From Mobula hypostoma (taxonomy: Eukaryota), in contig NC_086097.1 of the NCBI RefSeq assembly GCF_963921235.1, positions 138,572,001 to 138,636,000 of the forward strand: a stretch of DNA of 64,000 bases, written 5' to 3'. Under the pieces are notes generated by a model. That model did not search any database, was not told the origin of the DNA, and saw only the letters and a program-made list of their open reading frames with translations. Positions 1,916 to 63,331 of this stretch are shown here, piece by piece (positions within the stretch are counted from its first letter, which is position 1; each line of letters starts with the position of its first letter). A program made the translations under genes and the position numbers.

Positions 1916-4154
1916 TCTTTGACATTGATACTCATAAGAGTATGATATTTCTAACTGCTGGATAAAAAGACTAGGAGTGTCTTGTCTTGATATGCCTCCA
2001 ATGCTCTGAAGCCTGTCATTAGCTCGCATCCACTATAGAATTGTTATGAATAGCTATCAGTCCTATCTATGCCTCTTATATTTTTGTAAGCCTTTGTGTT
2101 CATCCCTCAGCCTCACGCATTCCAATGAGAATAAACTTCTCCTATCCAGTATCTCCTGTATCTACAGCCCACTATTCCAGGTAATACCCAGTGAATCTCT
2201 TCACCGTTCTTTCTGTTTCCACTATATTCTTTCTGTGAGGTGACCGGAATTGCACATAGTGCAACCTGACCAATGTTTTGTACGGCTGCAACATGATGTA
2301 CCCATACTCATTGCTTCTGCCTATACAGGCAAACATATATCTCCTTGTGTTAGCACTTTCAGGGAGCTAGGGATTTTGTACCTTAATGTCTCTGCATACG
2401 TCAAACGTGGTGCATGATGAATTTTATAAGAAACGTTTTGATAAGAACCTGAGCTGGTCTGAATGGTCTAGGTTGTTGAATATGCTGTTTCTAGTGGTCA
2501 GTAAAGAAAGAGGGACATACAGATGTTGAAATCATTGGAACTGTGGAGAGTCCATTGTCAGTCCTGTCCTTGTAGCAACATATCAATCAAAGTGTAGGGC
2601 AAGGGTGGAAGGATTATGAATCTTGAGGATATTTTGGGAGTCTTGTATAGAACAGTGCTTTTTGGAAACAATAAATGTACACATTTATGTTGTACAGAAT
2701 TGGAACTGTTTGAGGAAATGAATGCTGTTTATTTTCTGCAGCAGGCTGAATAGTAAGGAAATAATGTACATACTTACACTATGTAATAAGATTAAAATGC
2801 AGCAAATGTAACCTGAAGGCTTGATGAAAAAATTGTTGTTGCATTCCTCCTTGTGTATGTCTGCTTGAAGTGCTTGGAACAAAGAACAAAGTGCATAGTT
2901 TGGAATTCAATTTTTTTTGTCCCACCAAGATGCCGTGCTGAGAATTATACTTCAAAGCCACATTGGCATCTCAAAATAGGTGAAGATACATCATGAATAT
3001 TGTTTGCTGTCATCTTTGTAGACATACTGGAAGATTTTGGTTTTCATTTGTTTAAAAAAAAGAGAATCCAAGTTGCATTTCTAATGAAAAAGAATCTACT
3101 GTCATGAAAGGAAAAGTAAAACCTGAAGGAAATCCTTCCAAGTGTGCCAAGTGGGAAATTCATTACTTTAGTCGTATTTTGACATTCTCGATATTTGTGA
3201 AGCTTTGGGCAGCTCCTAATAGCATGGAATAGGAACAGTTATAAATGCAGAAACCTCTCATTCAGCATTCTAGTCCACTAGGACCCCTATTTTTTTTTTC
3301 CAGCGTTTATTACCTTACTGCTAGTTATAATTTGTATAATTGTCGTTTCTACTCAAGATTTAATGGAATTGCCCTGAAGCATCTCAACCTACCCACCTGA
3401 TTCACCTTCCGTTGCTTATCAGTAATGTTTGCTTCGCTGGCTTAAGTTAGCTTTTGATCTTTTTCAAGGATGTCTCTCGAAGATCATTTCATGTGTTTGA
3501 AAATTCTCCTTTCTCAGTGTTTTGAGCTATATTTGTGACAAAAAAATTGATGTAGGACTTAATTGTTTTTGTCTTCTCTCAGTGAGATGGCTTATAATGG
3601 AAACGTATGTGTATAATACCTATAACAAAATTCTGTGATGCAATCTTATCTGACTGCGTGACTGTTAGGCGTTGTAATAATTCTTGTAAGGTTAAAAGGT
3701 AACACAAATATAGAAATGTTATTAGTTAAAACTATTTGCTAGATTTTTTTTATACAGACTAAACACTCTGTTAACTACACAGAATAATAACAAACTAAAA
3801 TATATCCCGAAAGGCTGAATGTTGTTATGATACGTGGTTCTTAAACTGCTTGACAAAGGAAGAGTCTGGACATTTAACTGAGTCTTTAGATTCAAACAAA
3901 CAAATCAAGAAGTTAACTTTGTGAAGATATACCCAAGCCCAAAACCTATTGAAGATGGTGTGCAGCAACAAAACATGCCACAGTCAGGGAAGCAGCATAT
4001 TCCACCAATGTACTATCTATGCAGCTCTCAATTCTGTTAATTTTGTGATCACGCATCGAGAGCAAAATATTTTTTTTCTTCCAGATATTTTGGCCTCACT
4101 AATTCCAACTTAAAATTACTACAGGGAATGATTTTAATTCCAGTTGCTTAAATT

Positions 4155-4900
4155 CCTTGGTGGTATAATTTCAGAGAATTTGTCCTGGGTCCAGCATGTA
4201 AGTGCCATTATAAAGAAGGCACAGCAGCAAACTTAGAAGTTTGTGAAGATTTGGCATGTCATCTAAGACTTTGGCAAACTGCTATAGATGTGTGGTGGAG
4301 AGTATATTGACTGGCTGCATCGTGGACTGGTATAGAAACACCAATGCCCTTGTATGGAAAAGCCTACAAAAAGTAGTTGATATGGCCCAGTGCATCATGG
4401 ATAAAGGCCTCCCCACCACTGAACTCATCTACACAGAGTGCTTTTATAGGAAAGCAGCATCCATCATGAAGCACCTCCACCATCCAGGCTATGCTGGCTT
4501 CTTGCTGCTGCCATGAGGAAGAAGATCCAGGAGGCTTAGGACCTACATTCCCAGGTTCAGGAACAGCGATTACCCCTCAACCATCAGGCTCTTTAACTTC
4601 ACTCAACTTCATTTGTTTCATCACCGAACTGTCCCCACTGAACTGCAGTCATTTGCAAGGACTCTTCATCTCAGGTTCTCGATATTTGTTGCTTATTTAT
4701 TTACTCATGTTTTCTCTCTTTTTGTACCCGCACAGTTTGTATTTTTTGCACATTGGTTGTTGTCGACTCTGTTGGTTGTAGTCTTTCATTGTTTCTATTA
4801 TGTTTCTTATATTTATTGTGATTACTTGCAATAAAATGAATCTCAGTTGTATATGATGACATATACGCTTGATAATAAAATTTACATCTAACTTCATTTC
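4155..4900 (+). mobile_element. Rex1/Babar-type LINE 3' fragment
   Basis: ORF 4256..4516 (YRCVVESILTGCIVDWY...LQKVVDMAQCI) is the post-RT C-terminal region. T-rich 3' UTR ending gataataaa. Confidence 0.85.
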
Positions 4901-5329
4901 GCACCTTCAGGAGGTGATGTAGATACACTTCTGGTATTTTTTTCAATTCCTTATAATGGAAAACTCTGGGTAATACTGGGGAACAGACGGACTTTGCATA
5001 TCAAAATAAACTAATCAACTCTTATACTCATATTCTTTGACTTTTTCTAAATATAAGAATATTGAATGAATGTTTTCAAGAACACATAGTAGGTGGATAA
5101 ATCACCAAGAGGTAAGCATTTACTGAAAACCACAAAATCAGTGTCGTCATCTCCATCTATAGCCTAAATATCCCATCCTGTTGAGAGCCAGGAATGGAGA
5201 AAAGCTTCTAAAGAATTATGATGAGCCAAATGTATGCTTGATGGAGCATGCACTAAGATCTCCTCAACCAAGACGTGGTGCATGTATCCTTGACTTCATC
5301 TCCTGGCACTCTTTCCATCTCAGCTGTTA

Positions 5330-6430
5330 CTGTGCCAGCTCGGCAAGATGTAGAAAAGGACATGCATTAGTTGTGAAACACAGGAGCAGACAAAATCCTT
5401 GCTGAAATTCTAAAACATGGCACAGAAGTGCTTCTGGCATGAGTTCATGATCTTTTCTCATCTCCCACATAGAAGAAAGAACATGCTAGAGGATCACAAT
5501 GGCACACTGAACATGAAAGAATGAAAGTTTGATTATTTAATTCACGAGTAGTCTGTTTGCTGTCTGCCATGAGGAAAGTCATTACAGGGATTATCCTCAA
5601 CTAACTTTCAGGAGCTAAGGACTCTTCCCAAGGTCATATAGAATTTTCACCGCATGACAGGTACAAGATAAGTGCAGAGACTAGATCAATCATGACATAT
5701 ACCTGACCTTTTCCCCACAGAAGCCTTTGCCATTAATCAAATTATGAAGGATTCTTTTCAGGTCTTAGGTGCCCACCAGAATTTATCACCATCATGTAAA
5801 ATGGCATGGAAGCTTTGATCCTTAGAAATTGATCCACCGCACCTATCGTGGGAGGAGCTGGTGGAGTGGCAAGTAAAACCAAGTCATTTCTGTAGGCCTC
5901 TGCAGTATTTAATGCCATCTTCAAGCTTCCTGCTGGAGAGAAGCTCATCAATGGGTTGAGTTGGGAAACTGCAATTGTTGGTTTCAATCTGGGACCAAAA
6001 TCACATGGGTGTTGCTTTTCAAGTTCAAGTGCATAGGTTTTGCTTGTTCATGTGAATTTTCAGACTGTGATTCCTTTCTGCGTTTACTGAGATATCTCAC
6101 ATACTAAACATCCAATATTGAGAAAATCAAAGCTACTGTTTTTTGTCATTGATATACACTCCTTTCCTGTGTGGCGCTTGGTGAAATTTGCAAACTTACT
6201 GTGATACAGAAGGCATAATGGCAGAGCCCTTTCGTTACCATCCAAGAACAAGGCTCCTGCGCTCAGTCCATCTGTTGCTAAACCCCAGATGGATACCATT
6301 TGCTACTTCCTCACTCAGCTTGTACAATTTAAATCACTGTAACCACCTGCAGTTCTGCAAATCTAGACATATCATGGAATAACATTGCATGTTGTGCAGT
6401 GCAGTCACACACAGACACTTCGCTAGATGG
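5330..6430 (+). mobile_element. Highly decayed LINE reverse-transcriptase fragment, probably RTE clade
   Basis: Scattered RT-like peptides in broken frames (LLSAMRKVITGIILN, GCPPEFITI-like). Confidence 0.45.
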
Positions 6431-6480
6431 GACATATGAGCAAAGGTTGGTCTTAGAAGTAGGAATTACAGTGGGAATTA

Positions 6481-6770
6481 CCATGGTGTAGGGGTTCAAC
6501 TTCTGCCACTGTTTGTAAAGAGTTTGTATATTCTCACCATGACTGCGTGGGTTTCCCGTGGCGCTCTGGTTTCCTCCTACATTCCAAAGACATATGGGTT
6601 AAAGGTTAGTAAGTTCTGGGCATACCATGTTGCTGCTGGAAGCATGGCAACATTTGTGGGCTGCTTCCAGCACATATTCAGACTTCGTTGACACAAATGA
6701 CATTATTTCACTGTATGTTTCTATGTACATGTGACAAATAAAGCTAATTGTTATCTTATTTGTATCTTTA
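6481..6770 (+). mobile_element. V-SINE
   Basis: B-box-like ggttcaact, V-domain tgcgtgggtttcccgtggcgctctggtttcctcctacattccaaagac, tail ...gtgacaaataaagctaat. Confidence 0.8.
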
Positions 6771-8639
6771 AATTTTGAAATAAGATGGGGAGGTTAGTCA
6801 GAGAGTGGAGTCTTTGCTGATTGTAGCACAGCTGTCAGTGGAATTTTGAAGAAATAAGGAACCTGTAATGAGCCCAAGTTATAGAGGTGCAATGATCTGA
6901 GGATTCGAGGAGAGGGGGAAGAGCTGAATCACTGAGGTTTTTAATCTCGGGGACAAGGATTGAAAAGTGTGGATGTTGTTAGATCAAGAGCCAGCTGAGG
7001 TCACATGAATGAGTGGAATATAATAACGAGTTTTGAGCAAGCTGAAGTTTAATAGTGTGGAAGAGTCGTCAGGAGGACAGCAAGAGGGCAATGTATTGGA
7101 ATTGCCAGCTGTTTGCGTAAGTGTAGTGTAGAGAAGTTTGTCTAATTGAACGGAGCACTTGGTTCATCTTTTGATTTATACTTTGTTATTCAACCTTAAG
7201 AAAAAAATTGAGGATAGCACATTATTCTGATTCGGAGACATCAAGTGTTTAGTTATCAGACAAAAATTATAGAAGAGGAAGAAACTGACATCACTTTGCA
7301 GATTATATTAATGATCCCACATCCACAGCTCAAACTTTCAATTCATTTTAAAATGTGGCTTTGAATCTTGGTGACATTGCCTCATTATGTGACAATCAAG
7401 TTTTATATGTAGATTGTGTATCAGATATGGTGAAGGGGGTTAGAAAACAATACTGTCTGTGTTAGTCAATCTGTTCTGCAGCAACTGAAGTATTAAATTG
7501 TTTGGGTAATATTACAAGAAATAATGTGTCCTCATTACATCACTTGCGTTATAGTGCTGATCCCCTGTAACATTACACTTCTGTCCTTCAAGTTCATCTA
7601 ATGCAGTGTTTCTCGGCTGTTTATTGACTAACCTCACATTGTTTTTACCAGCTTAGTACTTGGTTTAAGTCTCCTGTTATTAAAATATTAGACTTGGATG
7701 ACTTGGGATTGGCATGCAGAATGTTAATGCAAGTATACAAGCAGTTTTATGATAACAATGTCTGTAACCTTCGTTGCCCTTTTAATGTTTATATATTGTG
7801 TACATTTCTTTGAAAGACTGGTGTTTTAATCACATAGATTTCATTAAAATGTATGAATATTTTATAGGAAAGCTAGACATCTTGCATTGGCCATTTTATG
7901 TAAGAGGTATAAGTCGACCAAGAGAGAAATCGCAGCTGCTGTGTTTTGTATTACTCTCTGTACCCATGAGTTCAGAATCGGTCCTCTGCAATACCGCTCT
8001 CCAGAGTTGCTTCTCTTGTTAGACTCCAGCAACAATGCCACATTTGAATGTGTTAGTCTTGTATCTTAGTTTTCTTGCATTGCTTTACTTATTATTATTA
8101 TTTTGTCTTTTTTTCCTTCTATATTATGTATTACGTTGAGCTGCTGCTGCTAAGTTAACAAATTTCACGTCACATGCCGGTGACAATAAACCTGATTCTG
8201 ATAAGTTACAGTGGTGTCACTGGGCAAATCCACTGCATAACATTGAACTAAATTTTATTGGTGGAGTGTCTGAGTGCCCCATGCCCAGTCAGTTTTTACC
8301 ATCCATTCCAAGACACTGAAACTTCAGACTGCATGGTTCTGAAAGCCATTGTGCATCTCTGCTTCAATTGGTCAATATTCTTGGACAAGAATTACATTTT
8401 CTTCATTTTTTTCAGGATGTGGACATTACTTGGCAAGGCAAACTCTGGTTGGCCTTGAGAAGGTGGTTGTCAACTGCCACCTTAAACTAAGGTCCTTCTC
8501 CTCCGCCTTCTCCCCTGCCTCCCCCCCCCCCCACCCCTGTATAGTTGTGGAAGAAGTTCCAGGCTTTAGAAGCACAACAGGGAAGGAATGGTGATGCAAC
8601 TCCAGGGTCATGATAGTGTCTAGTATTGTGTGAATATGT

Positions 8640-9145
8640 GGATGGCAGTGCTTCCACATATTACAAAGAAGGCATGCCAGCAGCTATATTTCAATAGAAG
8701 TTTCAGGAGACTTGGTATGTCACCTACATCTTCAGCAAATTTCTACTGTGGTACCATGGAGAATATTCTGACTGGTATGGAGGGGCCACTGCACAGGACA
8801 GGAAAAAGTTGCAAAACATTGTAAATTCAACTAGCTCCATCATTGGCACCAGCCTCCCCAGTATCAAGGACAATTTCAAAAGGCAATGCCTCAGAAAGGT
8901 AGCATCCATCTAGAAGGATCCCCACCACTCAGGACATGTCCTCTTTTCGTTACTAACTTCAGGGTTGGAAGTACAGGAGCCTGAAGGCACATACTAACTC
9001 ACTATTTTTGCTCTCTTTTTGCACTACTTACTTTTCTTTACATATATCTTTTTGTTATTTATGGTATATTATGTATTGCACTGTACTGCTGCCGCAAATA
9101 CATTTCATGACATATATCAGTTATCATAAACCTGGTTCTGATTCC
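8640..9145 (+). mobile_element. Rex1/Babar-type LINE 3' fragment
   Basis: ITKKACQQLYFNRSFRRLGMSP...FYCGTMENILTG (ORF 8630..8824). Tail ataaacctggttctgattc. Confidence 0.8.
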
Positions 9146-19500: not shown

Positions 19501-20014
19501 TTTAAGGTTGCTGAGATGACTCTGCTATTTGGGTTAACGGGTATGATGAAGTTTGGTAAATGGTATATAATGTTAGATTATTATGTTTTCTTCCAGTAAA
19601 GCTACATATTGAACAGAATGTTTCTATATTTGACATGGAAGTGTTGACTAGCAAAGCGAGATTGAGTTCACACAGCTCTTGTACCATGATTTTGATAACA
19701 AGATCCTAGCATTTATCCTGCTATAGATGAAGTTAATTGTCCTGGAAATCTGAATTCTCTCTCATTCTCTCCTTAAATTGTGAGATTGTTTCTTACCTTC
19801 CATTTACAAGGAACTTACCTAAAATGTGGTATTGCACTCACTGTATCCACAATCATGGTTACTGCCTCTTTAAGATATCAGTTCAAGGTATTTCATTGAT
19901 TTAAGTTTAAGTAGTTTGTTTTTCCCTAATATTTTCTTTAAGTTCCCATCTATTTTAGAAATACCTAGTCTCCATCTGTGAATGTAAATGCAAAATGAGA
20001 TTATTTTTTCCATA

Positions 20015-20141
20015 AACAACAGGAATTCTGCAGATGCTGGAAATTCAAGCAACACACATAAAAGTTGCTGGTGAACGCAGCAGGCCAGGCAGCATCTCTA
20101 GGAAGAGGTGCAGTCGACGTTTCAGGCCGAGACCCTTCGTC
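20015..20141 (-). mobile_element. Solo Penelope-like terminal fragment with 12-bp target-site duplication
   Basis: Homologous to the ends of the GIY-YIG-bearing elements at 41525-42200 and 62080-63230. Flanked by attttttccata at 20003-20014 and 20142-20153. Confidence 0.8.
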
Positions 20142-21979
20142 ATTTTTTCCATATCCTTTCTCCTCCATGATAATTTCTTCTGCATAGGCTTGTGTTTACT
20201 TTCACTGTCATCTTTTTTCCATAGACCTAGATGAGATTTTACTATCTGCTTTTTGTGTCTCTTAGATTTAGCTTCAATCAAGTTTCTTCGTATTAATCTC
20301 TGGGTCAAGACTTGGAAGAATCTAAAATCTTTCATTCTAGGCTTGTGCAGGCTTTCTGGTAGCATTATAAGACTCTTCATTTAACCTAATTTGATTAGCC
20401 ACAATTGGACCATATTTTCCTTTTTTTTGGAGAATGTGTATTTATTTTGCATATTATGAATGATTTTAAATTTCTAAACTATTTTTTAAATCAATTTTGC
20501 AAACCATCTTGTTCGTCCCTTCCCTTACACCTACAAAGTTTTGTGATTTGGATTTTAAATCATAATTAAGTAGTATAATCAACTATTTACAAGAATTTTT
20601 GAATCATTTTTATTCCCCTGTCATATTGCGACTGTCTCCGTTTTGTTAAAGGTTATTTCCATTAGTGCCATGAGTTAATCTATTTTGCTTTCAATCCTTC
20701 ATTCTGATGTAATCATGTTAGCTTTAACTAGTTTCTATTTTCCCCCAAGGAGACATTAGGCCCTAATGTATTCTTACCTTTGTTGGACCCTTTGCCTCTA
20801 ATTATGCACTAGTACCAGTGTGTTGTACTCTGCCTTGAAAGATCATTTCATCAGTAGAGTGGGGATGAACTTTTAGGCATGCTGTTATTTCAACATGCAT
20901 CCTTGATGTTCCTCTTTCTACTTTTGTATTGACCCCTGTCCAAGTTCTATTTTATCAATTTGTCCTGCTTGCTGCCCGAGTTATATGTCAGTTTACTGAA
21001 GCTCTTCTCTGCATAATAGTCGTTTTTCTCCAGATGTAGTTTCACTGGCTCATGAAGCTAAACCAGTATTTCACACACAACTCTTTTCAGCCGCACACTT
21101 AACCTTATAATACATTTGACAATTTGGCACAGTTAATCCAAAGATCAATTTCCATGAGATGCTCTATGTTAGCTTGGACCCTAGCTTTCTGGGCACTCTT
21201 GGCAGGGTCTAACTCCTGCTTTGCCTATATTGCTGATTCCAATATGCATCACAACATCTGGATTCACAATTCCTTCAATTTCTCTTCCAACTGTGTGAAA
21301 TACTTGCTTCCCCAACCTCCATTCTGTTTTGATGTCAGTTCAGTCTTCCCACCTTCATGCAAACTTTACCTCATCTGTCATCCTGCTCTCTGTGCTCCCC
21401 AGTGCAATTGACTCACTTTTAGCCTCATGAAAGGCAACTAACGTGTGTAGGAATTGCTGAACTTTGGAATATCATGGATTCTGAGGAAGTTCATCAAAGT
21501 TTTATGATATAAAGATATCTTGATATAAACAAACTGGCAAAAGTTAATTGCATTGCTTCTGAGTTTTTTGAAGGGAAAATATAAATGACGTTTGCAATGT
21601 GCCATGACCTCAAGTAATAGTTCTTTGAAAAATCATTAATATTTCTGGAGTTGTTCTTTGTGTTTTTTGGGTTATGGTTAGTATGACATTAAACTTGAAA
21701 GAATTAGTCTTGTTGACAGAATCATGTTAATCAAGACATTCTGGATTAATTTTCAGATTGATACCTCGTGGATAAAATCGGGTCAAGGGGGAGAAAGTGC
21801 AAAGACTGTTTAAAAAAGTAGTAAGGGATCCTCAATGTGAATGTTTTCTTGTACACAATTATGAGACCAGAGGACAACCTCAGCAGTGATTTAGTAGAAA
21901 GGAGTTTTAAGTCAAGCCATAGAGCTATACCACATGAAACAGGCTCAGGTTGTCCATGCTGACCAATACCTATCTAAAC

Positions 21980-27039: not shown

Positions 27040-27270
27040 TATTAGAACATTGAACAGTGCGGTAAAGGTCAGGTTACTCTAAGATCAATATAATCCTTCC
27101 CTCCTACATAGCCCTCCATTTTTCTATCATTCATGTGGCTTTCTAAGAGTTTCTTAGATAGCTGCTGCCTGGCCTGCTGAGTTTCTCCAGCATTTTGTGT
27201 GCTGAACTGGATTTCTAGCATTTGAAGAATATCTTTGTGTTTAAGAGTTTTAAATACCTCTAATATAGAA
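27040..27270. mobile_element. CR1 3' tail (- strand) interrupted by a Penelope terminal fragment (+ strand, about 27155-27242)
   Basis: gctgcctggcctgctgagtttctccagcattttgtgtg matches the Penelope termini. taagagttt occurs on both sides of the insert. Confidence 0.6.
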
Positions 27271-40915: not shown

Positions 40916-41524
40916 AAACTTCGCCGAGCAGCAACTGAACGTTGGCCCAGTGCTCAAATCAACCAAACAGCAGGTCATTCCTTGCTCTTGGACCCAGGCC
41001 TGCCACTTTGATATGCTCTTGGACACGGAACCTGTCGCCTCGATTCAGTGCATACCCGACCTTTTCAATCTGGCCCCTCTGTCTCACCTCAGTTCTGCTG
41101 CTTCGAATTGGCTCCAAATTCAGTCCAGCAATGGCCAAACCTTGGTTCGTTCCTCTCTTTCAGGCTCGGGCCCTGCCGCCTTGATTTGACCCGTACACGT
41201 CACACCGCAACTGTCTTGCACCTTTGAGTAGTAGATGATCAGCCCAGTTGTTCATCAGCTATCTTGCTGATCCATTATTTCATGAACAGTCTGCATCTCC
41301 CTTGCCACTTTCTGCTGATGATATGTTCACCCTCTAAACTTTAGCTTTGTTTCAGTGTACAACTCCAAGTGTCTGTGGAAATATACTCCAGGCAAGGAAG
41401 AGTAGAAGTGAAAGGAATGTCTCACATAGGATGGAGTAGATTTTGTGCTTCCTAAATCATTCTATATTCGAATAAGTTATATGTCATGGTGATGTGTAAA
41501 TCACACTCAGACTTGGGCGAAAGA

Positions 41525-42200
41525 ATAAACACAAAAAAAAGTCTACGGATGCTGGAAATCCAAAGCAACTCACTCACACGCAATGCTGGAGGATCTCTGC
41601 AGGTCATGCAGAACCTATGGAAGTGAGCAGACAGTCAACATTTTGGACTGAGACCCTTCCTCAGGACTAAGCAGGAAGAGGGAAGATGCTAGAATAAAAA
41701 GGTGGGGGAGAGGGGAAGGTGGCTAGCTGGAAAGTGATAGGTGAAGCCAGGCTGGTGGGAAAGGTCAAGGCTGGAAAAGAAGGAATTTGATAGGAGAGGA
41801 GAGTGGACCATAGGAGAAAGGGAATGGAGGGCGGACCCAGGGAAAAGTAATAGGCAGGTGAGAAGAGGTAAAAGATCAGAGTGAAGAATAGAGGGGTGGG
41901 CGGAGGGGGGGGAATTTGTTTACCCGAAAGAAAAATTGATAGTCATGCCATTAGGTTGGAGGATCCCAAGCAGAATATATAGTGTTGCTCCTCCACCCTG
42001 AGGGTGGCTTCATCTTGGCATAGGAGAAGGCCATGGACTGACATGTCGGAATGGGAATTTGAATGTTTGGCCACCAGGAAGTCCTGCTTTTGGCGGATGT
42101 AACAGAGATCAATGAAGTAGTTCCCCCCCACACCACCCCCAATACCACCCCCAGTTTATGACGGAACTTACCGATGTAGAGAAGGCTACATTGGGAGCAT
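41525..42200 (-). mobile_element. Penelope-like retroelement 3' part (GIY-YIG endonuclease remnant plus terminal repeat)
   Basis: Minus-strand CSQCSLLYIG (about 42171-42199) and LVAKH...HSDMSVHGLLLCQDEATLRVEEQHYIFCLG (ORF 41943..42131). Purine/pyrimidine-skewed UTR. Confidence 0.8.
41632..41668 (-). ncRNA. Decayed minimal hammerhead-ribozyme motif
   Basis: Minus strand AGTC-CTGAGGA-A-GGGTCTCAGTCC-AAAATGTT-GACTG. The GAAA box is mutated to AAAA. Confidence 0.5.
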
Positions 42201-43369
42201 GGGAGAAAGAAGCCAACATCATTTATTTAGCCATCAGTAAGACACTCCTTTTTGCATACAAAGAATACTTGCCATGCTTGTGGATACTGTGGTTACTCTG
42301 TGTTCCGAAACCAAGGCTCAATAAATGTACAGCTGGGAGAAAAGATAAATGGAGAGTAGTCAAGCGAAAGGGAAATAATGTTTTTTCTGCCTTAACACAG
42401 CATTTTGATGCTTCAACTTGTGCTGAATTCAGCTGATTTTAATTATGATAGTAACTAATTATACTGGCAAAAGGTGAAAGCAGGAAATAATGATACTTCC
42501 ATGATTCTTTTTTTTCTAAAATTGTGTGAGAGCTAAGTGAATCAGGTAAATTAATGTTTTTTTTTCTTGCATTCCATCTGCTGTTTGTAAGAGATCTGTA
42601 AATTTCAGTGCTGCAAATGGCCACTGTAGCTGGGAGCTTGATTCACCCATGTGCCTTCATGTGGGGTCAGTGGTATTCTTTGGAAATGGGTTGATTCATA
42701 TCAGAGTCCCTGTTTACTTAGACAGTATAATATTTCTGACAATTTAGTATACTGCTGAAAAATAAATGGCTGTGATGAGCAACAGGTATTTTCAGTTATA
42801 AAAGTATGTTTGAGTCTTTGAATTGCTGTTCATTTTAATGATTCATCTTTCTCTTTCTCATTGTTGTATAGGAACAACATAACAATTCTATCCTTTGCAT
42901 CCAATGTTAAATGTTGGCAGCTATTCATTTGCATTCTAGTTGATTCACTAATGGCTGTGAACATAACCATCCATAGGTAGATTTAAAACAAAAGAATTTG
43001 GATAGTATTTATACAAAATTAGATGCAAAGATTATGAAATTGCCTATTAAGTACATTAGGTCCTGAAAGGACCGTTCAGCATCTCAACATTTTTTTTGTC
43101 ATCAGCCATGGAAAAGAAGGGATGATGTTGCAATGAGCAAAAGGGAGGGTGTACGAAAGAGTAGAGACCAGGAGGGAGTAACTAATACAATGGTGGAGGA
43201 GCTGGCTTTAAAAGAGTGGCAAAATCTTTAAAAAAAAAAGTAAGTTAGTTAGTAACAGAAGGCTTGTTTGGGGATTGTAAGTAGCGGACATCTGCAATCT
43301 GAAGCACCAGAAGAAGAAAAACAGAGATTAAAAATCTATCCATGCTACCATTACATTACAAAGCTGCTT

Positions 43370-43630: not shown

Positions 43631-44381
43631 CTCCTAGTTTTAATTCAGACCAATCCTAGAGAAACTCATTAGCCTAACTACTTGTTGATAGAAGCTTCCC
43701 CCTCTCATTGGTGAAGAGAGGCAGAAGATCAGCACTGTCAAGTCAGGCTGTTAGTCAAAGGGCCAGGGCTCACTTCACTTTTCCTAGGAAACGTTTCTGT
43801 AGCAGCCCATGACTTTTGGGAAATCTCAGTCCACCACATCATCTGCCAAGAAGTGAATTAGGTCTGTGAAGAAGTAACATTTGCATTTTGTGTATAGACT
43901 GTTTGGTTACTGTTGATATTTAAATACAACATTTTGGTTCAAATACCGTTAGAAATAAACATGAGATTTATTCTTTATGGAATTAAAATTGTACATTAGC
44001 TAAGATTTACATTGTCATATAATCTTATAATCCTATTATGCCATAATAAAATGGCAATTATTTATTTCATACATGCTGCATCAAATCATTAGGTATTTTG
44101 GCCTCTTTCCATTAAACCACTTATTCTGCGTACTGTAGCTAATGTGATCATTTAATTCTAATCATATGGACGTGTTTTTCTCATCAACATTCACCCAAGA
44201 GCTCTTTATCAACTGATTTATGATGACTTTGAAGACCATAGATATAGAGCTGAATCAGGCCATTTGGCCCATCATGTCTGCTCCACCATTCCATCATGGC
44301 TGATTTATTATCTCTCTCAACCCTATTCTTCCATCTTCTCACTGTAACCTCTGATCAAGAGCTAATCAATAATCTATCAAC

Positions 44382-44568
44382 GCAAACACAAGGAAATCTG
44401 CAGATGCTGGAATTACAAGCAACAGACACAAAATGCTGGTGAACGCAGCAGGCCAGGCAGCATCTTTAGGAAGAGGTACCATCGACGTTTTGGGCCGGGA
44501 AGGGTCTCGGCCCAAAACGTCGACTGTACCTCTTCCTAGAGATGCTGCCTGGCCTGCTGCGTTCACCA
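44382..44568. mobile_element. Fold-back Penelope terminal insertion with 61-bp arms and a TSD
   Basis: Arms 44437-44497 and 44508-44568 have 3 mismatches and a 10-nt spacer. Flanked by caataatctatcaac (44367-44381) and caatgatctatcaac (44567-44581). Confidence 0.85.
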
Positions 44569-44742
44569 ATGATCTATCAACCTCTGCTTTAAATGTATCT
44601 AATAACTTGTCCTCCACGGCCATCTATGTCAATTAATTCTACAATTACACTACCCTCTGGCTAAAGAAATTCTACTTCATCTCTGTTCTAAATAGGTGCC
44701 CCTCTTTTCTGAGGCAGTACCCTCTGGTCCTAGACTCTATAG

Positions 44743-45871: not shown

Positions 45872-47454
45872 CAGTTGCAAGAAAAAGTTTGTGAATCCTT
45901 TGCAATTACCTGGTTTTCTGCATTAAGTACTCATAAAATGTGGTCTGATCTTCATCTAAGTCACAATAATAGACAAACATAATCTGCCTGAACTAATAAC
46001 ACACAAACTATTGTACTTCTCATGTCTTAATTGAACACATTGTTTATTATTCACAGTCCAGGCTGGTAGAGCCTTCTTTAGCAGCAGTTACCTCCACCAA
46101 ACATTTCCTGTAGCTGCTGATCAGACTTGCACAATGGCAAGGATGAATTTTAGATCATTCCTTCATACAAAACTGTTTCAGTTCATCAATATTTCTGGTA
46201 TACCTTGCATGAACAGCCTTCTTCAGGTCATGCCACAGCATCTCAGTTGGGTTAAGATCTGGACTCTGATTTGGCCAACCCAAAACATGTTTTCTTCTTT
46301 TTAAACCATTCTGTTGTTGATTTACTCTTGTGTTTCAGATCATTGTCTTGTTGCATTATCCAGCTTCTGTTAAGTTTCAGGTGACAGACCACTAGCCTGA
46401 CATTCTTCTGTAAAATGTCTTGATACAATTTTGAATTCATTGTACCCTCAATGATTGCAAGCTGTCCAGGCCCTGAGACAGCAAACCAACCCCAAACCAT
46501 GATGCTTCTTCCACCATGCTTCACAGATGAAGCTTTGGTGTTGGCATGCAGTGTGCTTTTTCTTCCAAACATAGGGTGTGCATTTCTGTCAAAAAGTTCA
46601 ACTTTTGTCTCATCTATCCACAGAACATTATCCCAGAAGTGTTGTGGGACTTGCAGGTGGTCTTTTGCAAACTTGAGATGTACAGCAATGTGTTTTTTTT
46701 TGAGAGTAGTGGTTTCCTCTGTGACATCCTTCCATGAGCACCGTTCGTGTTCATTGTTTTTCTTACAGTGGAGATATGATTAGAGACTTTAGCAAGGTCT
46801 AGAGATTTCTGCAGGTTTTCGGATACCCATAGGTTCTTTTTCACCTCCTTCAGCATTGCACATTGTGCTGTTGGTGTGATCTTTGCAGGACACCCATTCC
46901 TAGGGAGAGTAGCAACAGTACTGAATTTCCTCCATTTCTTTACAATTTCGTATACTGTGGACTGAAGAACACTTGGGTCTTTAGAAATGCTTTTGTAGCT
47001 CTTTCCAGCTTCGTGCATTTCTGCAATTCTTCTGAGGTCCTCTAAAAATTGTTATGCTCGAGGCATGGTGCACATAAACAGATCTTTCTTGAGAAGAGCA
47101 GGCTTTGTCAGTAACCTGACTTTGTGTGTCTTTTTTTTGCAGGGCCGAGTACCTCTACAATCCACACCTCCAATCCCTTCTTGATTGGAATACCCAACTT
47201 CAAATAGCTTTTGTAGATGGCATTAACTCAGAAGTTCACATACTTTTTTTGAACCTAAATTGTGATTCTTTAAATGGTGTACTCGGTATTGACAAGAAGT
47301 AGTACAATTGTTTGTGTGTTACTAGCTTAGGCAGATTGTGTTTGTCTGTTATTGTGACTTAGGTGAAGATCAGACCACATTTTATCAGACCACATATAAT
47401 TAGTAGGGAAACCCAGGTAACTGCAAAGGGTTCACAAACTTTTTCTTGCAACTG
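45872..47454 (-). mobile_element. Full-length defective Tc1-like DNA transposon (1583 bp, long TIRs)
   Basis: TIRs of about 155 bp (cagttgcaagaaaaagtttgtgaa.../...ttcacaaactttttcttgcaactg) with TA on the right. Transposase remnants HEAGKSYKSISK, VKHGGRSIMVWG, QQDNDLKH and QSPDLNPTEMLW, broken by frameshifts. Confidence 0.95.
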
Positions 47455-48514: not shown

Positions 48515-51003
48515 GAAACCATAGAAACTACAGCACAGAAACAGGCCCTTTGGCCCTTCTTGGCTGCGCCGAACCATTTTCTGCCTAGTCCCACTGACCT
48601 GCACGCGGACCATATCCCTCCATACACCTCCCATCCATGTATCTGTCCAATTTATTCTTAAATGTTAAAAAAGAACCGGCATTTACCACCTCGTCTGGCA
48701 GCTCATTCCATACTCCCACCACTCTCTGTGTGAAGAAGCCCCCCCTAATGTTCCCTTTAAACTTTTCCCCCCTCACCCTTAACCCATGTCCTCTGGTTTT
48801 TTTCTCCCCTTGCCTCAGTGGAAAAAGCCTGCTTGCATTCACTCTATCTATACCCATCATAATTTTATATACCTCTATCAAATCTCCTCTCATTCTTTTA
48901 CGCTCCAGGGAATAAAGTCCTAACCTATTCAACTTTTCTCTGTAACTGAGTTTCTCAAGTCCCGCCAACACCCTTGTAAACCTTCTCTGCACTCTTTCAA
49001 CCTTATTTATATCCTTCCTGTAATTTGGTGATCAAAACTGAATACAGTACTCCAGATTCAGCCTCACCAATGCCTTATACAACCTCATCATAACATTCCA
49101 GCTCTTATACTCAATACTTTGATTAATAAAGGCCAATGTACCAAAAGCTCTCTTTACGACCCTATCTACCTGTGACGACACTTTTAGGGAATTTTGTATC
49201 TGTATTCCCAGATCCCTCTGTTCCACTGCACTCCTCAGTGCCATACTATTAACACTGTATGTTCTACGTTGGTTTGTCCTTCCAACGTGCAATACCTTAC
49301 ACTTGTCGGTATTAAACTCCATCTGCCATTTTTCAGCCCATTTTTCCAGCTGGTCCAAGTCCCTCTGCAGGCTCTGAAAACCTTCCTCACTGTCTACTAC
49401 ACCTCCAATCTTTGTATCATCAGCAAACTTGCTGATCCAATTTACCACATTATCATCCAGATCATTGATATAGATGACAAATAACAATGGACCCAGCACT
49501 GATCCCTGTGGCACACCACTAGTGAGAGGCCTCCACTCAGAGAAGCAATTCTCTACCACCACTCTCTGGCTTCTTCCATCAAGCCAATGTCTAATCCAAT
49601 TTACCACCTCTCCATGTATACCTAGCGACTGAATTTTCCTAACTAACCTCCCATGCGGGACCTTGTCAAAGGCCTTACTGAAGTCCATGTAGACAATATC
49701 CACTGCCTTCCCTTCATCCACTTTCCTGGTAACCTCCTCGAAAAATTCCAACAGATTGGTCAAACATGACCTACCACGCACAAAGCCATGTTGACTCTCC
49801 CTAATAAGTCCCTGTCTATCCAAATGCTTGTAGATTCTGTCTCTTAGTACTCCCTCCAATAACTTACCTACTACTGATGTTAAACTCACCGGCCTATAAT
49901 TTCCTGGATTACTTTTCGATCCTTTTTTAAACAACGTAACAACATGAGCCACTCTCCAATCCTCCGGCACTTCACCCGTAGACAGCGACATTTTAAATAT
50001 TTCTGCCAGGGCCCCCGCAATTTCAACACTAGTCTCCTTCAAGGTCCGAGGGAACACTCTGTCAGGTCCCGGGGATTTATCCACTTTAATTTTCCTCAAG
50101 ACAGCAAGCACCTCCTCCTTTTCAATCGGTACAGTTTCCATGGTCTCACTACTTGATTCCCTCAATTTCATAGATTTCATGCCAGCTTCCTTAGTAAATA
50201 CAGACGCAAAAAACCTATTTAAGATCGCCCCCATTTCCTTTGGTTCCGCACAAAGCCGACCATTCTGATCTTCAAGAGGACCAATTTTATCCCTTACAAT
50301 CCTTTTGCTCTTAATATACTTGTAAAAGCTCTTTGGATTATCCTTCACTTTGACTGCCAAGGCAACCTCATGTCTTCTTTTTGCCCTCCTGATTTCTTTC
50401 TTAAGTATTTTCTTGCACTTCTTATACTCCTCAAGCACCTGATTTACCCCCTGTTTCCTATACATTTCATACAACTCCCTCTTCTTCTTTATCAGAGTTG
50501 CAATATCCCTTGAGAACCAAGGTTCCTTATTCCTATTCAATTTGCCTTTAATCCTGACAGGAACATACAATGCACTCTCAAAATTTCTCCTTTGAAGGCT
50601 TCCCACCTACCAATCACATCTTTGCCAGAGAACAACCTGTCCCAATCCACGCTTTTTAGATCCTTTCTCATTTCTTCAAATTTGGCCTTCTTCCAGTTCA
50701 GAACCTCAACCCTAGGACCAGATCTATCCTTGTCCATGATCAAATTGAAACTAATGGTGTTATGATCACTAGAACCAAAGTGCTCCCCTACACAGACTTC
50801 TGTCACTTGCCCTAATTCGTTTCCTAACAGGAGATCCAATATTGCATCCCCTCTAGCTGGTCCCTCTATCTTCTGATTTAGAAAACTTTCCTGAACACAT
50901 TTTACAAACTCTAAACCATCCAGACCCTTAACAGTATGGGAGTCCCAATCAATGTATGGAAAATTAAAATCCCCTACCACCACAACTTTATGTTTCCTGC
51001 AGT
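48515..51003 (-). mobile_element. Young 5'-truncated CR1 LINE (late endonuclease through RT and 3' end)
   Basis: ORFs 50537..51025 (GDFN, GSSDHN), 49032..50606 (524 aa; YMDFSKAFDKV, PQGSVLGP, FADD) and 48585..48992, with few lesions. Possible TSD tgacta at 48509-48514 and 51004-51009. Confidence 0.97.
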
Positions 51004-51269: not shown

Positions 51270-51650
51270 GGCAGAGGAACTCAGTAGGTCAGGCAGCATC
51301 TGTAGAACTGGATAAACAGTCAATATTTCAGGCCAAGACCCTTCATCAGGACTGGAAAGAAAGGGAGAAGATACCAGAATTTAAAAAAGGTGGAGGAGGG
51401 AAAAGTGGACAGGCTAGAAGATGATAGGTGAAGCCAAGTGGGTGGGAACGGTAAAGGGCTGGAGAAGAAGGAATCTGATGGAAGAGGAGAAGAGGGGCAT
51501 CAGGAGGAGGTGATAGGAAGGTGAGGAAAAGGGGTAAGAGGCCAGACTGGCCCTCTCCTATCTAATCTTTTCTATTCCAGCCCTTTATCTTTCCCACCCA
51601 CCTGGGTCCACTTACCACCTTCTAGCTTGTCTGCCTTCCCCTCCCCCCAC
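51270..51650 (-). mobile_element. Penelope-like terminal repeat with an inverted partial copy
   Basis: Homologous to 41580-41880. The pyrimidine-rich 51552-51650 segment is an imperfect reverse complement of about 51389-51490. Confidence 0.75.
51317..51354 (-). ncRNA. Minimal type I hammerhead-ribozyme motif, best-preserved complete copy
   Basis: Minus strand CAGTC-CTGATGA-A-GGGTCTTGGCCT-GAAATATT-GACTG. Stem I CAGTC/GACTG, CUGAUGA and GAAA boxes intact, stem II hairpin, palindromic ATAT in place of stem III. Confidence 0.7.
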
Positions 51651-53480
51651 GGCTCAAATTTCTGGCTTGAATCACAGTGTCATACAGAATGGAAAGTGGG
51701 ATGAATATGGAAGAATTTCCACATCTACACCAACCAACAGGGACCCTTCCGTATTAATTATATTTTCCAACATTTGGCCTGTAGCCTTCTATGCCTGATG
51801 GTTTAGGCACTTCCTAAGTGCTCACAGTAACTCTGCTTCCACTACTTTTTCTGGCAGTGCATTCCAGGTACTTGCCACTCTCCAGGTGAAAAAAGGTCTC
51901 CCTCTGTTCACCTCGAAATCTTTTACCCTTTGCCCAAAATCTATGCCCTCTAAATTTTATTCACTTTTGAAAAGGGGAAAAAATCCTGCTATCTGTTTGC
52001 CTCATAATTTTATATATGTGAAATATCTCAATCATGCCTCCTTTAACCCAGAACATGCTGATCTGAGATGGTCTGAGACTAGTTGTAATAAGATGTTGGA
52101 TTTTGGTGTCTTTTTAAGCAGAATATTCTAAGTTCCATTGTTTGAAAAAAGTTGTGCTTTAACAATAGTAGAAACACCTAAACTAATTCTTGAGAAACAT
52201 CTTGAGAAAAATTCTTGAGACTGAAGTTGCAGATTTGAGGGAGACTGCCAGTCCAGATATTATGTTGAAGCCAGAGTGGCTGTTTCATTATCTTTTTAAA
52301 TCTGGATGCATGAATTAATAAAACATAGAAAAGTCTGGCTTGGTAATTTCTCCAGCTTTTGCTTCCTGCGATATTTCAAATATTAATGGCTCTGATGTGG
52401 TTATAGGAGTTTGTGACATTTTGATTTCTTCTGATTTGGAATTTTATGGTCATTTCATAACGGAACATGTATTCTGATATTGCTTAACAGTGAGGATTAA
52501 TCCACATCTGTCTGTTGGAAAATTGCATTTATGACAGGACACAACACTGATAAACCAGGCCGTTGATATTGTTTGATCTTTCTCATTGTAACAACACAGA
52601 GTGGGTTGTCATTTGGAAGGAGCAATGTCTGTGCTTTCAGATCTCCTTGGAGGCTGGACCAATGTAGAAATCAACAGCAATCAGACTAGTAGAGAGTAAT
52701 ATGATTGCAATTTACCACCTTAAGGGAAGATTACTTAACTTGGATGAATAATGGACAGTTCACAGCCCAAAATGGCAACTTGAAACTGCAGACACTGACA
52801 GTCTGTTGAAAATATTGGTGCACCAAAACACTATCTGGAGAAATAGTGAAGTTTTAGATTGTAGTCCTTTGTGAGTTTGCTGTTTGCCCAAACATTCTTA
52901 CAGTATTCTCGATGCAATCTGATAATATAGGTCTGAAGATAACCATTATAATTTGTCTTAGTAGGTAATATGGTCAGGGTGAAAAATGCATTAGTATTTT
53001 GTTGGCTGTTTTCCTGTTCTGCTTTAATTTCATGCATGAGTATTGGATTCGAATTTCCAGTAATGACTGGTGCTAGTCATTTTTCATGATTTTGATTTTG
53101 GATTTCAAAGGAAGACAAACTAAATTATAGATATAATAGAGACTCCTTGCTTAGAGCAGATAAGTGATAGGTAAAGTTGTTGGCCAGTTAATAAGCACTG
53201 TGATAAAGAAGAATGATGGAAAAGGTACGAAATTAAGTATTAAATAATAAGCTACAGCATATGTCAGGCATCACACCCAAAGAACCATTTGGCATTTGCC
53301 TTCTTGAGCTGACTTTCCCTCCGATCATTACAAAATTGAAAGAGGCTGTAACTCGGGTTATTCCCATAGCAAGACCCCGTGAATTTTTTTATAACATTGA
53401 TATCTAACTTTTGGATTATTTTTCATTTAAACACTATTGCATATGCTGGCATTTGGCCAGTGAGCCCCAGCTGCTGCTTC

Positions 53481-57031: not shown

Positions 57032-57045
57032 TTTTCTCATTTCAG

Positions 57046-57155
57046 GTGCTTGTGAATGATTTCTTCTTGGTGGCCTGCCTTGAGGACTTCATAGAGAATG
57101 CCCGGCTCTTTATCTTTGAGACATTTTGTCGTATTCATCAGTGCATTAGCATCAG
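57046..57155 (+). CDS. EIF3E: EIF3E internal coding exon, equivalent to human exon 10 (PCI domain region)
   Basis: Translates [36 protein letters not shown] plus 2 nt, continuing directly from ...LRECES. Acceptor ttttctcatttcAG, donor GTacag. 110 bp. Confidence 0.97.
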
Positions 57156-57237
57156 GTACAGATGCCTCTTAATCACCAGCTTGTGTAGAAGCAAGTTACT
57201 TAAATTCATGATCTTACCGTGAGCTCCTCTAGACAAG

Positions 57238-57437
57238 GAAACAGAAAATGCTGAAAACACTCAACAGTATCTGTGGAAGGGGAAACTTGTAAATGCTTTG
57301 GATCTAAGACCATTCATCAGAACTGGGAACTACCCTTTCCCAATTTTGAATAAGGGTCTCAGAGTTGAAACATTCATCTGGTTTGTTTCTCTGCAGCTGC
57401 AGCCTGTCAAGATGAGTGTTTCCAGAATTTTGTTTTT
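57238..57437. mobile_element. Old fold-back element made of two inverted Penelope-like termini
   Basis: acagaaaatgctgaaaacactca...gaccattcatcagaactgggaa versus ttcccaattttgaataagggtc...tgagtgtttccagaattttgt, an imperfect inverted pair. Confidence 0.6.
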
Positions 57438-62079: not shown

Positions 62080-63230
62080 GACCTGCCTCTACAACTTCCC
62101 TTCACCAACTTTCAGGATCCCAACAGAGCTTCAAGATGAGGCAGTCCTTCACTTGTGAGTCCATCAGGGTCACTTACTGCATCCGGTATTCCTGGTGCGG
62201 CCTCATTTATATTGGTGAGTGCTTCATTGAGTATCTCCACACTGTAATCATCCAGAAGCAGTTGAACATGTATTGATAAAATGTAAGAAGTATCAAAAAG
62301 AAAGAGTGAAGATGATAGGAGCGCTTAAGATAAACAAACAAAAACTGATGTGGGTATAGAAGACATTTTAAGTGGGAATTCAAGAGAAATACAGATCCGT
62401 ATCATGAAGTATCTGAAAGATTCAGGTTTATTATATAGAATTTAGGGAATGCAATTCTTTTCCCTTCTGTTTATCCAACGATCCACACTCCAGTCTAGCA
62501 GGTGGCGGTAATGCACCTAAAAGCTGGTTTGCCAACCGCCATAAAACAACACAAGAAGAAGAAGAAGAAGGGTATCTCCACTCTATCTGCCGTAACGGTG
62601 GTGATCGCTCTGTGGCTAGCCATTTTAATTCCATTTACCATTTCTATGATGACGTGTTTGTCCACAGCCTCCTCTACTTCAAAGTTGAGGCCAAGTGCAG
62701 ATGAGAGGAATATCACCTCATATTCTGCCTTGCTAGTGTCCCAACCTGATGTTCTGAACATTGATTTCTTCAGCTTGCAGTACCACTCGCCTCTGACCCC
62801 ACCCCTTCCTTTTCCCTTATTCAACCATTCCTGATTACTCCTCCGCTTTCTCGATCTGCCCATTGCCTACTCATTGCACCCTTTAATTCCCTTTCTCACT
62901 TCCTTCCCATATTCCATAATCCACTGTCCTCTCCTATCAGATTCCATTTTGTTCCCTTACATTATTTTCCACTCTCTCCCCCTCCTCTACCTGCCTGTCT
63001 TTTCCTTCACATCATGGTCCACTTATCACCTGCTAGCTCTTGCTCTACCTCTACCCCACCTTTATATACTGGCTAACTCCCCTCTTTCTTCCCAGTCCTG
63101 AACGAAGGTCGGGCTACAAAATGTCGACTGCCCATTTCCCTATGTAAATCCTGCCTGACTGATTGAATTCTTCCAGCATTTTTGTGTGTTGCTCCAGACT
63201 TCCAACATCAGCAGTCTATCTTGTATCTTC
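62080..63230 (+). mobile_element. Penelope-like retroelement 3' part (GIY-YIG remnant plus terminal repeat), interrupted by an I/Nimb LINE
   Basis: VTYCIRYSWCGLIYIGE at 62169-62219 (GIY-YIG-like), C-terminal QPDVLNIDF, pyrimidine-rich UTR, decayed hammerhead-like motif at 63093-63130. Confidence 0.8.
62243..62570 (+). mobile_element. I/Nimb-clade LINE 3' end with (AAG)n tail
   Basis: CNHPEAVEHVLIKCKKYQKER (C-x7-H-x4-C knuckle), one frameshift, then KYLKDSGLLYRI* (stop at 62443-62445). aagaagaagaag tail. gtatctccac duplicated at 62231-62240 and 62572-62581. Confidence 0.7.
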
Positions 63231-63331
63231 ATTGCAAATAGGTAATATCAGCTACAAAAATTTCTGAAACTGTTTAGTACAAGGCATTTTAGGTGCCAAA
63301 ATATAAATAAAGCTTGTACATGGAACTACTG

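What the first reader, a model, noticed from the sequence alone, without database searches (positions are those of the whole stretch)
51317..51354. Minimal hammerhead ribozyme in a Penelope terminus, antisense within the EIF3E intron
Seen: the minus strand reads CAGUC-CUGAUGA-A-GGGU(CUUG)GCCU-GAA-AUAU-U-GACUG. That gives a 5-bp stem I, both catalytic boxes, a short stem II, and a 4-nt palindrome where stem III should be. Related copies (20111-20142, 41632-41668, 44499-44526, 63093-63130) point to an ancestral CUGANGAA-GGGUCUCGGCCC-GAAACGUC-GACUG with an ACGU palindrome and a GUC cleavage triplet. Established: Penelope-like retroelements carry minimal type I hammerheads that lack a stable stem III and are thought to cleave as dimers. 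Inference: this copy changed ACGU to AUAU, probably by CpG decay on both strands. The palindrome and an NUH triplet (AUU) survive, so it may still cleave.
Basis: partly seen in the sequence, partly recalled or inferred. Interest (0 to 1): 0.75.

Follow-up and report, generated by a model that had tools for sequence, protein, structure and literature searches.

The report
Decayed Penelope hammerhead in EIF3E intron
This is a real minimal hammerhead-ribozyme motif at the end of a broken copy of a very abundant Penelope-like jumping gene, lying backwards in an EIF3E intron; the kind is already known, and this aged copy is likely inactive and of no use to the host.

Summary
The motif is there as described: the only strict minimal-hammerhead hit in the window, 0 in 50 shuffles. 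It lies antisense in an EIF3E intron, in a roughly 400-bp remnant of a Penelope-like element (RT, Cys linker, GIY-YIG; likely Neptune), with about 450,000 motif-bearing copies (extrapolated). Young copies confirm the ACGU/GUC ancestor. The motif is conserved between subfamilies (35 of 37 nt against about 63% upstream), so it likely matters to the element. This copy has ordinary CpG decay: AUAU is as frequent as double hits at other CpGs. With an AUU triplet, a weaker helix III and no intact partner nearby, cleavage is unlikely (untested). Family-level extras: 71 of 154 tail-bearing copies start at the hammerhead's front edge, not at its cut site; this scan noted that before on other shark/ray DNA. 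Added here: only 2 of 36 young copies carrying the ORF start stop at the upstream hammerhead (18 of 52 on first pass), which suggests two template classes. An old subfamily carries an A6C core, and the youngest has G10.1-U11.1. Verdict: new member of a known kind.

The parts
51317..51354 (-). Minimal type I hammerhead motif, decayed copy (AUAU palindrome, AUU triplet, G10.1-U11.1); predicted cut 51322/51321
51270..51316 (-). Shortened 3' tail of the element (ends at about +75 from C3; usual ends about +91-98 and +127-141)
51355..51545 (-). Pyrimidine-rich 3' non-coding part of the pLTR, old subfamily group A
51552..51665 (+). Inverted 5' piece of the same pLTR, without hammerhead or tail
   Evidence: (I18)
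57043..57159 (+). EIF3E exon (eIF3e residues 317-355), the next identified exon downstream of the insertion
41522..42230 (-). Longer old copy: broken GIY-YIG end, 3' non-coding part, hammerhead with failed core, tail
19999..20142 (-). Young solo stub starting at +1 of the core, with an 11-bp target-site duplication
44373..44571 (.). Young head-to-head stub pair joined inside the hammerhead, 15-bp duplication with one mismatch
62897..63243 (+). Old copy with disrupted first box, preceded by a broken endonuclease end
57241..57433 (.). Weak, very old head-to-head stub pair (scores 16-17 bits)
27158..27244 (+). Tail-only fragment

Best explanation
The motif is the minimal hammerhead of the terminal repeat (pLTR) of an endonuclease-bearing Penelope-like retrotransposon, likely of the Neptune clade, and this copy is an old 5'-truncated insertion that has likely decayed without selection and is likely inactive. 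[quoted passage not shown] Inferred from PMC11167929 (anole Poseidon element): the element's protein primes reverse transcription internally at those two sites, one from each nicked target strand, which gives direct plus inverted arms with one long and one short end. Inferred from PMC4209133 and PMC11167929: the intact hammerhead would cleave as a dimer through the ACGU palindrome and probably needs the element's protein. After insertion the copy lost all its CpGs, and it sits on the strand opposite to the EIF3E pre-mRNA.
For: Strict descriptor hit with 0 in 50 shuffles. Parent elements L112 and L113 with hammerheads 3,514 and 3,517 bp apart. Pfam RVT_1 E 3.2e-05 and GIY-YIG E 4e-04 in one frame of L111; Cys linker conserved in distant homologs. 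Old versus young consensus: hammerhead 35 of 37 identical, upstream 57 of 90 and 61 of 95, adjacent tail 8 of 16, distal tail 62 of 77. Minimal hammerheads with different stem sequences in 6 of 80 distant metagenome PLE loci (5 sense and 2 antisense hits), 0 in 20 one-strand shuffles. 25 of 29 head-to-head pairs have one long and one short end; 10 of 33 listed pairs have an 11-15-bp duplication. This copy's non-CpG tail divergence is 10.7%, old-group median 12.5%. In old copies the core decays about as fast as the tail (11.6% over ten core positions, 9.3% over eight, 14.9% in stems, 13.4% in tail).
Against: This copy is better kept than most old copies: only 8 of 46 gapless old copies pass the core test and 1 of 46 passes core, stems and palindrome, so it is in the tail of the distribution (it was also picked for looking intact). 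Orthologous conservation could not be tested. The RT Pfam scores (23.5-24.9 bits) are under the curated cut-off of 29.6. No tree with named Neptune or Nematis references was built. An A6C core subfamily amplified to 20 of 92 old copies, which weakens the view that efficient cleavage is needed by the element.
Confidence: 0.85

Rival explanations
1. This copy still cleaves, in an antisense transcript or in trans with one of the many young copies, and has been kept or co-opted by the host.
For: Both boxes, stem I, stem II and a Watson-Crick palindrome survive, which holds for only 1 of 46 random old copies. About 60,000 intact copies are extrapolated genome-wide (21 in 1.2 Mb), so partners exist in principle.
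Against: AUU triplet (PMC1636495 passages). AUAU frequency equals the background of double hits. AUAU does not pair with the ACGU of young copies by Watson-Crick pairs. Active-like dimer -10.8 kcal/mol against -14.7 for an ACGU copy, and below two monomers (2 x -9.1) in stability. The same-strand neighbours in the window are broken. Even intact metazoan minimal hammerheads cleaved poorly as dimers in vitro (PMC4209133).
Confidence: 0.07
2. Family level: the hammerhead fold is kept by the element for a role other than cleavage (protein binding, promoter or translation signal), or cleavage is dispensable for retrotransposition.
For: No pile-up of copy starts at the cut site: 5 of 162 start at +28 to +32 and 0 of 39 young ORF-start copies do. 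An A6C subfamily (20 of 92; linked to G at +60, 14 of 20 against 9 of 66) and a G10.1-U11.1 lineage both amplified; A6C lowers Mg2+-dependent cleavage strongly in other hammerheads (PMC7151607). Catalytic mutants did not change insertion in vitro for the anole element (PMC11167929). Naiad elements thrive without canonical hammerheads (PMC8557442).
Against: The catalytic boxes, the palindrome and the triplet are what is kept between subfamilies and in distant relatives whose stems differ. The anole hammerhead does cleave when protein is present, with C3G/G8C rescue (PMC11167929). A ligated circle leaves no scar at the cut site, so absence of starts there is also expected if cleavage is followed by ligation.
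Confidence: 0.35
3. The copy belongs to a separate non-autonomous element (retrozyme or SINE-like stub family) and not to a truncated autonomous PLE.
For: About half of tail-bearing copies are 100-140-bp hammerhead-plus-tail stubs. Retrozymes are proposed to derive from pLTRs (bioRxiv 10.64898/2026.07.22.740005).
Against: This copy extends about 190 nt upstream into the PLE 3' region and has an inverted 5' piece. No adjacent tandem unit. Stub junctions and upstream flanks are diverse and mostly unrelated to each other, and both subfamily groups give stubs and long copies.
Confidence: 0.05
4. Chance match to a loose pattern.
For: Rfam gives no hit; the motif is only 38 nt.
Against: 0 hits in 50 window shuffles; 155 core-covering homologs in 1.2 Mb; fixed position in full-length elements.
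Confidence: 0.01

Closest known systems
Minimal hammerheads (min-HHR) in pLTRs of metazoan Penelope-like elements (Cervera and De la Pena 2014, PMC4209133; parts 1-2 of 4 read)
   Same: Type I topology, no loop 3, palindromic 15.2-16.2, extra nucleotide between A9 and 10.1, located in both pLTRs, mostly single dispersed motifs, opposite-strand pairs close together.
   Different: Helix II is 4 bp, not the 7-8 bp of Schistosoma; 10.1-11.1 is G-U in this copy and in the youngest lineage; an A6C subfamily exists; extrapolated number (about 450,000) is far above the 4,000-9,000 descriptor hits reported for coelacanth and Xenopus (different method). Cartilaginous fishes are not named in the parts read.
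Poseidon element of Anolis carolinensis, PAc (Frangieh et al. 2024, PMC11167929; parts 1-3 of 4 read)
   Same: Two 3' end sites about 35-40 nt apart downstream of the hammerhead; no genomic or RNA ends at the cut site; direct and inverted arms.
   Different: Here the ORF starts about 166 nt after C3 and the end sites lie in the 5' leader, whereas the PAc ORF starts inside the hammerhead; this element has the CX2-5CxxC linker that Penelope/Poseidon lacks.
Neptune/Nematis EN+ PLEs (Craig et al. 2021, PMC8557442; passages read)
   Same: RT, Zn-finger-like linker, C-terminal GIY-YIG, partial tandems, inverted 5'-truncated copies, one-sided 30-40-bp tail.
   Different: Clade placement by tree was not done; about half of the copies are hammerhead-headed stubs.
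Non-LTR retrozymes (bioRxiv 10.64898/2026.07.22.740005; parts 1-3 of 5 read)
   Same: Type I hammerhead, pLTR origin, present in a chondrichthyan genome.
   Different: Retrozymes are tandem arrays; this copy is a single dispersed truncation continuous with PLE 3' sequence.

Membership tests
min-HHR of metazoan PLEs | CUGANGA and GAAA boxes with U16.1 and non-G at 17 | tested here: met
min-HHR of metazoan PLEs | Helix I and helix II formed; no or minimal helix III with palindromic 15.2-16.2 | tested here: met
   5-bp helix I, 4-bp helix II, AUAU
min-HHR of metazoan PLEs | Extra nucleotide between A9 and 10.1 | tested here: met
   A in 77 of 82 old and 48 of 48 young copies
min-HHR of metazoan PLEs | Highly conserved G10.1-C11.1 pair | tested here: not met
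   G-U in this copy and in 33 of 52 young copies; C is the older state (43 of 93 old copies C, 38 T). A typical trait in PMC4209133, not part of its descriptor.
min-HHR of metazoan PLEs | Location in the pLTR of a PLE, present in both repeats | tested here: met
   L112, L113; upstream hammerhead in 34 of 39 young ORF-start copies
min-HHR of metazoan PLEs | Self-cleavage as dimer or with protein | not testable with these tools
   Only folding energies; no raw RNA reads
EN+ Penelope-like element | Single ORF with RT and C-terminal GIY-YIG | tested here: met
   L111 794-aa frame hits RVT_1 and GIY-YIG (RT under Pfam cut-off; GIY-YIG at cut-off in L113); homologs carry PF00078 and PF01541. L111 itself has a frame-shifted stretch.
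EN+ Penelope-like element | Partial tandems, inverted 5'-truncated copies, one-sided 30-40-bp tail | tested here: met
Neptune clade | CX2-5CxxC linker between RT and EN | tested here: met
   CxxxxCxxC in L111-L113 and most full-length homologs; shared with Nematis
Neptune clade | Phylogenetic placement of the RT with named Neptune elements | not tested
   No named reference sequences were retrieved
Non-LTR retrozyme | Tandem array of hammerhead-bearing monomers | tested here: not met
   No adjacent direct repeat of the unit; copy continues into PLE 3' sequence
Host-domesticated intronic hammerhead (kind recalled, not from a call) | Sense orientation in the pre-mRNA | tested here: not met
   Gene on +, motif on -
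Host-domesticated intronic hammerhead (kind recalled, not from a call) | Conservation at the orthologous locus across species | not testable with these tools
   No relative genomes held; contigs gave no locus-spanning record

The most novel reading that the evidence does not exclude
The genomic copies record two RNA templates. Stubs come from a linear RNA that begins at the hammerhead's front edge (a pLTR start site) and is primed at its own 5' tail, so copying runs off after 100-140 nt. The stub-to-long ratio would then be a genomic read-out of hammerhead processing in vivo, comparable between the A6, A6C and U11.1 lineages.
Probability: 0.25. Interest if true: 0.65.

Novelty: new member of a known kind. 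Interest (0 to 1): 0.3.

Why it matters
The single copy matters little: it is one of several hundred thousand and probably dead. The family is a useful test bed for an open question, the role of hammerheads in Penelope retrotransposition: it has very young near-identical full-length copies, natural core variants (A6C, U11.1) that amplified, and a position-specific, first-pass-only stop at the hammerhead's front edge that makes clear predictions for 5' end mapping and circular RNA assays.

Tried and rejected
Rfam scan: 0 matches. RNA evidence: no RNA holder listed; the four runs are contigs, RNA status a guess, and gave no splice joints, ends or locus-spanning record; not used as evidence. Pile-up of starts at the cut site: not seen. 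Compensatory origin of AUAU: rejected, background frequency. Fixed distance from the priming site as cause of the stop: rejected, start positions do not differ between short-end and long-end copies (39 and 32 copies, Mann-Whitney p = 0.66). Intrinsic block by the hairpin on every pass: disfavoured by the second-pass control. Spliced retrocopies using the pyrimidine tract and AG just before the core: none among 38 solo stubs by comparison with five element copies, and two stubs inside other repeats (L201, L148) show flanks contiguous at empty sites; the other solo stubs could not be tested this way. Extra G at the stub junction (lead from earlier findings): 6 of 9 against 3.2 expected, p = 0.057, inconclusive. 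Orientation bias inside EIF3E: 5 sense and 7 antisense core-spanning hits, underpowered. Target-site duplication for this insertion: none of 7 bp or more found. Pfam on the short endonuclease remnants in the window and in five first loci: no hit. Paper searches returned nothing specific on shark or ray Penelope hammerheads; search of earlier findings by sequence returned nothing.

Full report
Observation. A strict minimal type I descriptor finds it as the only hit on either strand of the window, with 0 hits in 50 dinucleotide shuffles. Rfam has no matching family at gathering score. The host gene is EIF3E on the + strand: eIF3_N matches at C1:138459765 and C1:138469701 and an exon at window 57043-57159 matching eIF3e residues 317-355. 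The motif is therefore intronic and antisense.

The element. The motif and its flanks belong to a dispersed repeat (2,662 candidates, 40 scored, 81-87% identity over about 147 nt). The window copy at 41.5-42.2 kb carries a broken endonuclease end, which led to longer copies and to near-full-length ones (98,401 candidates, 108 scored). I fetched 20 of those 108, chosen for long open frames. All 20 have a terminus homolog downstream of the RT match, and L112 and L113 are partial tandems with a hammerhead in each repeat, 3,514 and 3,517 bp apart. [quoted passage not shown] By the definitions in PMC8557442 (passages) the linker excludes Penelope/Poseidon and points to Neptune or Nematis; no tree was built. 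The closest named homologs are from Chiloscyllium, Hypanus and Rhincodon, so the host is likely a shark or ray (inference).

Census. In 120 stretches of 10 kb at round coordinates on 20 large contigs, two profile HMMs of the terminus gave 224 hits, 155 covering the core, which extrapolates to about 450,000 in 3.48 Gb. An old group (A, median non-CpG tail divergence 12.5%) and a young group (B, 3.3%) separate. Young copies confirm the ancestral ACGU palindrome and GUC triplet (34 of 42 gapless copies with ACGT). Between the two consensus sequences the hammerhead is 35 of 37 identical, upstream sequence 57 of 90 and 61 of 95, the adjacent tail 8 of 16 and the distal tail 62 of 77. Among 80 distant metagenome loci (many lack the termini) the descriptor found 5 sense and 2 antisense hits in 6 loci, with different stem sequences, and none in 20 one-strand shuffles. 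The descriptor requires pairing, so this shows recurrence of the fold rather than an independent covariation statistic. Within the genome the stems are invariant between groups and copies show decay, not covariation.

This copy. It is a group A insertion of about 400 bp: direct arm about 51270-51545 on the minus strand, inverted 5' piece 51552-51665. Its tail divergence of 10.7% is typical. Its differences from the young motif in the loop, palindrome and triplet fall on CpG sites. The TA double-hit state at 15.2/16.2 occurs in 6 of 101 old copies, like 2 of 91, 4 of 93 and 8 of 102 at other CpGs, so AUAU needs no compensatory explanation. It is well preserved for its age (8 of 46 old copies pass the core test, 1 of 46 the full test), but it was chosen for that, and about 60,000 fully intact copies are extrapolated (21 in 1.2 Mb, 20 of them young). 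Old copies lose core positions at about the rate of tail positions. PMC1636495 (passages) ranks GUC and AUC above GUA and AUA and states that U is excluded in third place after a first A. The active-like dimer evaluates to -10.8 kcal/mol against -14.7 for an ACGU copy with the same stems; for all four versions tested it is less stable than two folded monomers, in line with poor cleavage of minimal dimers (PMC4209133, parts 1-2) and protein-assisted cleavage of the anole element (PMC11167929, parts 1-3). Cleavage of this copy in vivo is unlikely but untested.

How the element likely inserts. Copy 3' ends are bimodal (+91-98 and +127-141 where target duplications fix them; +84-103 and +125-134 in near-full-length copies). 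In tandems this tail continues into the 5' leader, with the start codon 166 nt after C3. 25 of 29 head-to-head pairs have one long and one short end and 10 of 33 listed pairs have an 11-15-bp duplication (no shuffle control). This matches the two internal priming sites and two-strand nicking shown for the anole element and the known one-sided tail.

Where copies start. Of 162 tail-bearing random copies with score 40 or more (62 of the 224 hits dropped), 154 reach +29; 73 of them start within -20 to +29 of C3 (71 after removing two with pyrimidine-rich upstream sequence), 30 of 121 in the ten bases before C3, against 26 of 81 over the next 160 nt. Only 5 of 162 start at +28 to +32, the cut site. 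The position does not shift with the 3' end class (p = 0.66). I reached this before consulting earlier findings; one search then showed that the scan had noted the same pile-up on other shark or ray DNA and on another piece of this genome, and supplied two leads (extra G, 12-14-bp duplications). The duplications were confirmed; the extra G was inconclusive (6 of 9, 3.2 expected, p = 0.057). The added control: among 39 of the 40 best-scoring young copies carrying the leader and ORF start (2,205 candidates), 3 start downstream of +29, 2 within -20 to +29, none at the cut site, and 34 run on, 19 beyond -545. Young first-pass copies stop there in 18 of 52 cases (Fisher p = 0.0015). Background stopping outside the hammerhead is similar on both passes (5 of 34 over about 165 nt; 15 of 34 over about 520 nt). 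Caveats: the second-pass set is the top of a ranked list, its downstream parts were not fetched, and 11 of the 18 first-pass stops are arms of head-to-head pairs and are not independent. The result argues against an intrinsic block and against a single linear template starting at the hammerhead edge. It leaves two readings: a separate short-run template that begins there while long copies come from circles or read-through tandems, or a stop tied to the initiation complex.

Natural variants. 20 of 92 old copies carry C at position 6, linked to G at +60 (14 of 20 against 9 of 66, p = 3e-6), so this is an amplified subfamily. A6C is a known natural variant that favours Mn2+ and cleaves slowly in Mg2+ (PMC7151607, abstract and results). 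The youngest lineage carries U at 11.1. Both weaken the case that fast cleavage is required.

Literature. Minimal hammerheads in PLE termini, dispersed single motifs and opposite-strand pairs are described (PMC4209133); pLTR origin of retrozymes, including one chondrichthyan genome, is described (bioRxiv 10.64898/2026.07.22.740005, parts 1-3); the Drosophila promoter and intron are described (PMC2377424, passages). Searches listed no paper whose title or abstract start reports stubs beginning at the hammerhead edge or an A6C PLE subfamily; most subscription papers and repeat databases are outside the library, and no supplements were read, where shark or ray motifs could be listed.

Verdict. 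Real motif, known kind, ordinary decayed copy. Interest 0.3, carried mainly by the family-level observations.

Noticed in passing
G000 random sample L131-L250 and EIF3E region (e.g. L156, L177, L202, L250): An old subfamily carries an A6C catalytic-core variant (20 of 92 group A copies), linked to other diagnostic positions.
   Followed up: partly
L111-L129, L331-L368: The youngest lineage has U at 11.1, giving G10.1-U11.1 instead of the usual G-C; the extra A could pair with this U in an alternative register (inference).
   Followed up: partly
L112, L024 (38-nt motif): ACGU versions fold as monomers into a longer hairpin in which the first box pairs with the palindrome and triplet, a possible self-inhibited state.
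   Followed up: partly
window 51350-51375 (-) and family consensus: A pyrimidine tract ending in CAG lies just before the core, resembling a 3' splice site and also an initiator-like motif (motifs recalled); no spliced retrocopy was found.
   Followed up: partly
L111-L129: 5' ends of the direct arms of most near-full-length copies fall between about -2,500 and -2,980 from the downstream C3; the set was selected for long frames, so this may be a selection effect.
   Followed up: no
L333, L348: Two young copies at different loci start at the same position, -405 from the upstream C3.
   Followed up: no
L201:1924 (-): A copy with an internal deletion from just after the ORF stop to about +30, close to the predicted cut site.
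   Followed up: no
L256: A distant metagenome PLE has the same minimal architecture at its 3' end plus an inverted copy upstream.
   Followed up: no
window 49032-51000 (-): A LINE-type RT frame of 524 aa (Pfam RVT_1, E 6.5e-37) with further related fragments at about 21.9-25.1, 37.2-39.0, 44.6-45.5 and 57.9-60.5 kb; CR1-like by recalled resemblance.
   Followed up: no
window 45900-47400: A Tc1/mariner-like transposase remnant between inverted repeats 45930-46020 and 47298-47388 (family by recalled resemblance).
   Followed up: no
G000:C1:138459765-138629159: EIF3E spans at least 169 kb in this genome.
   Followed up: no
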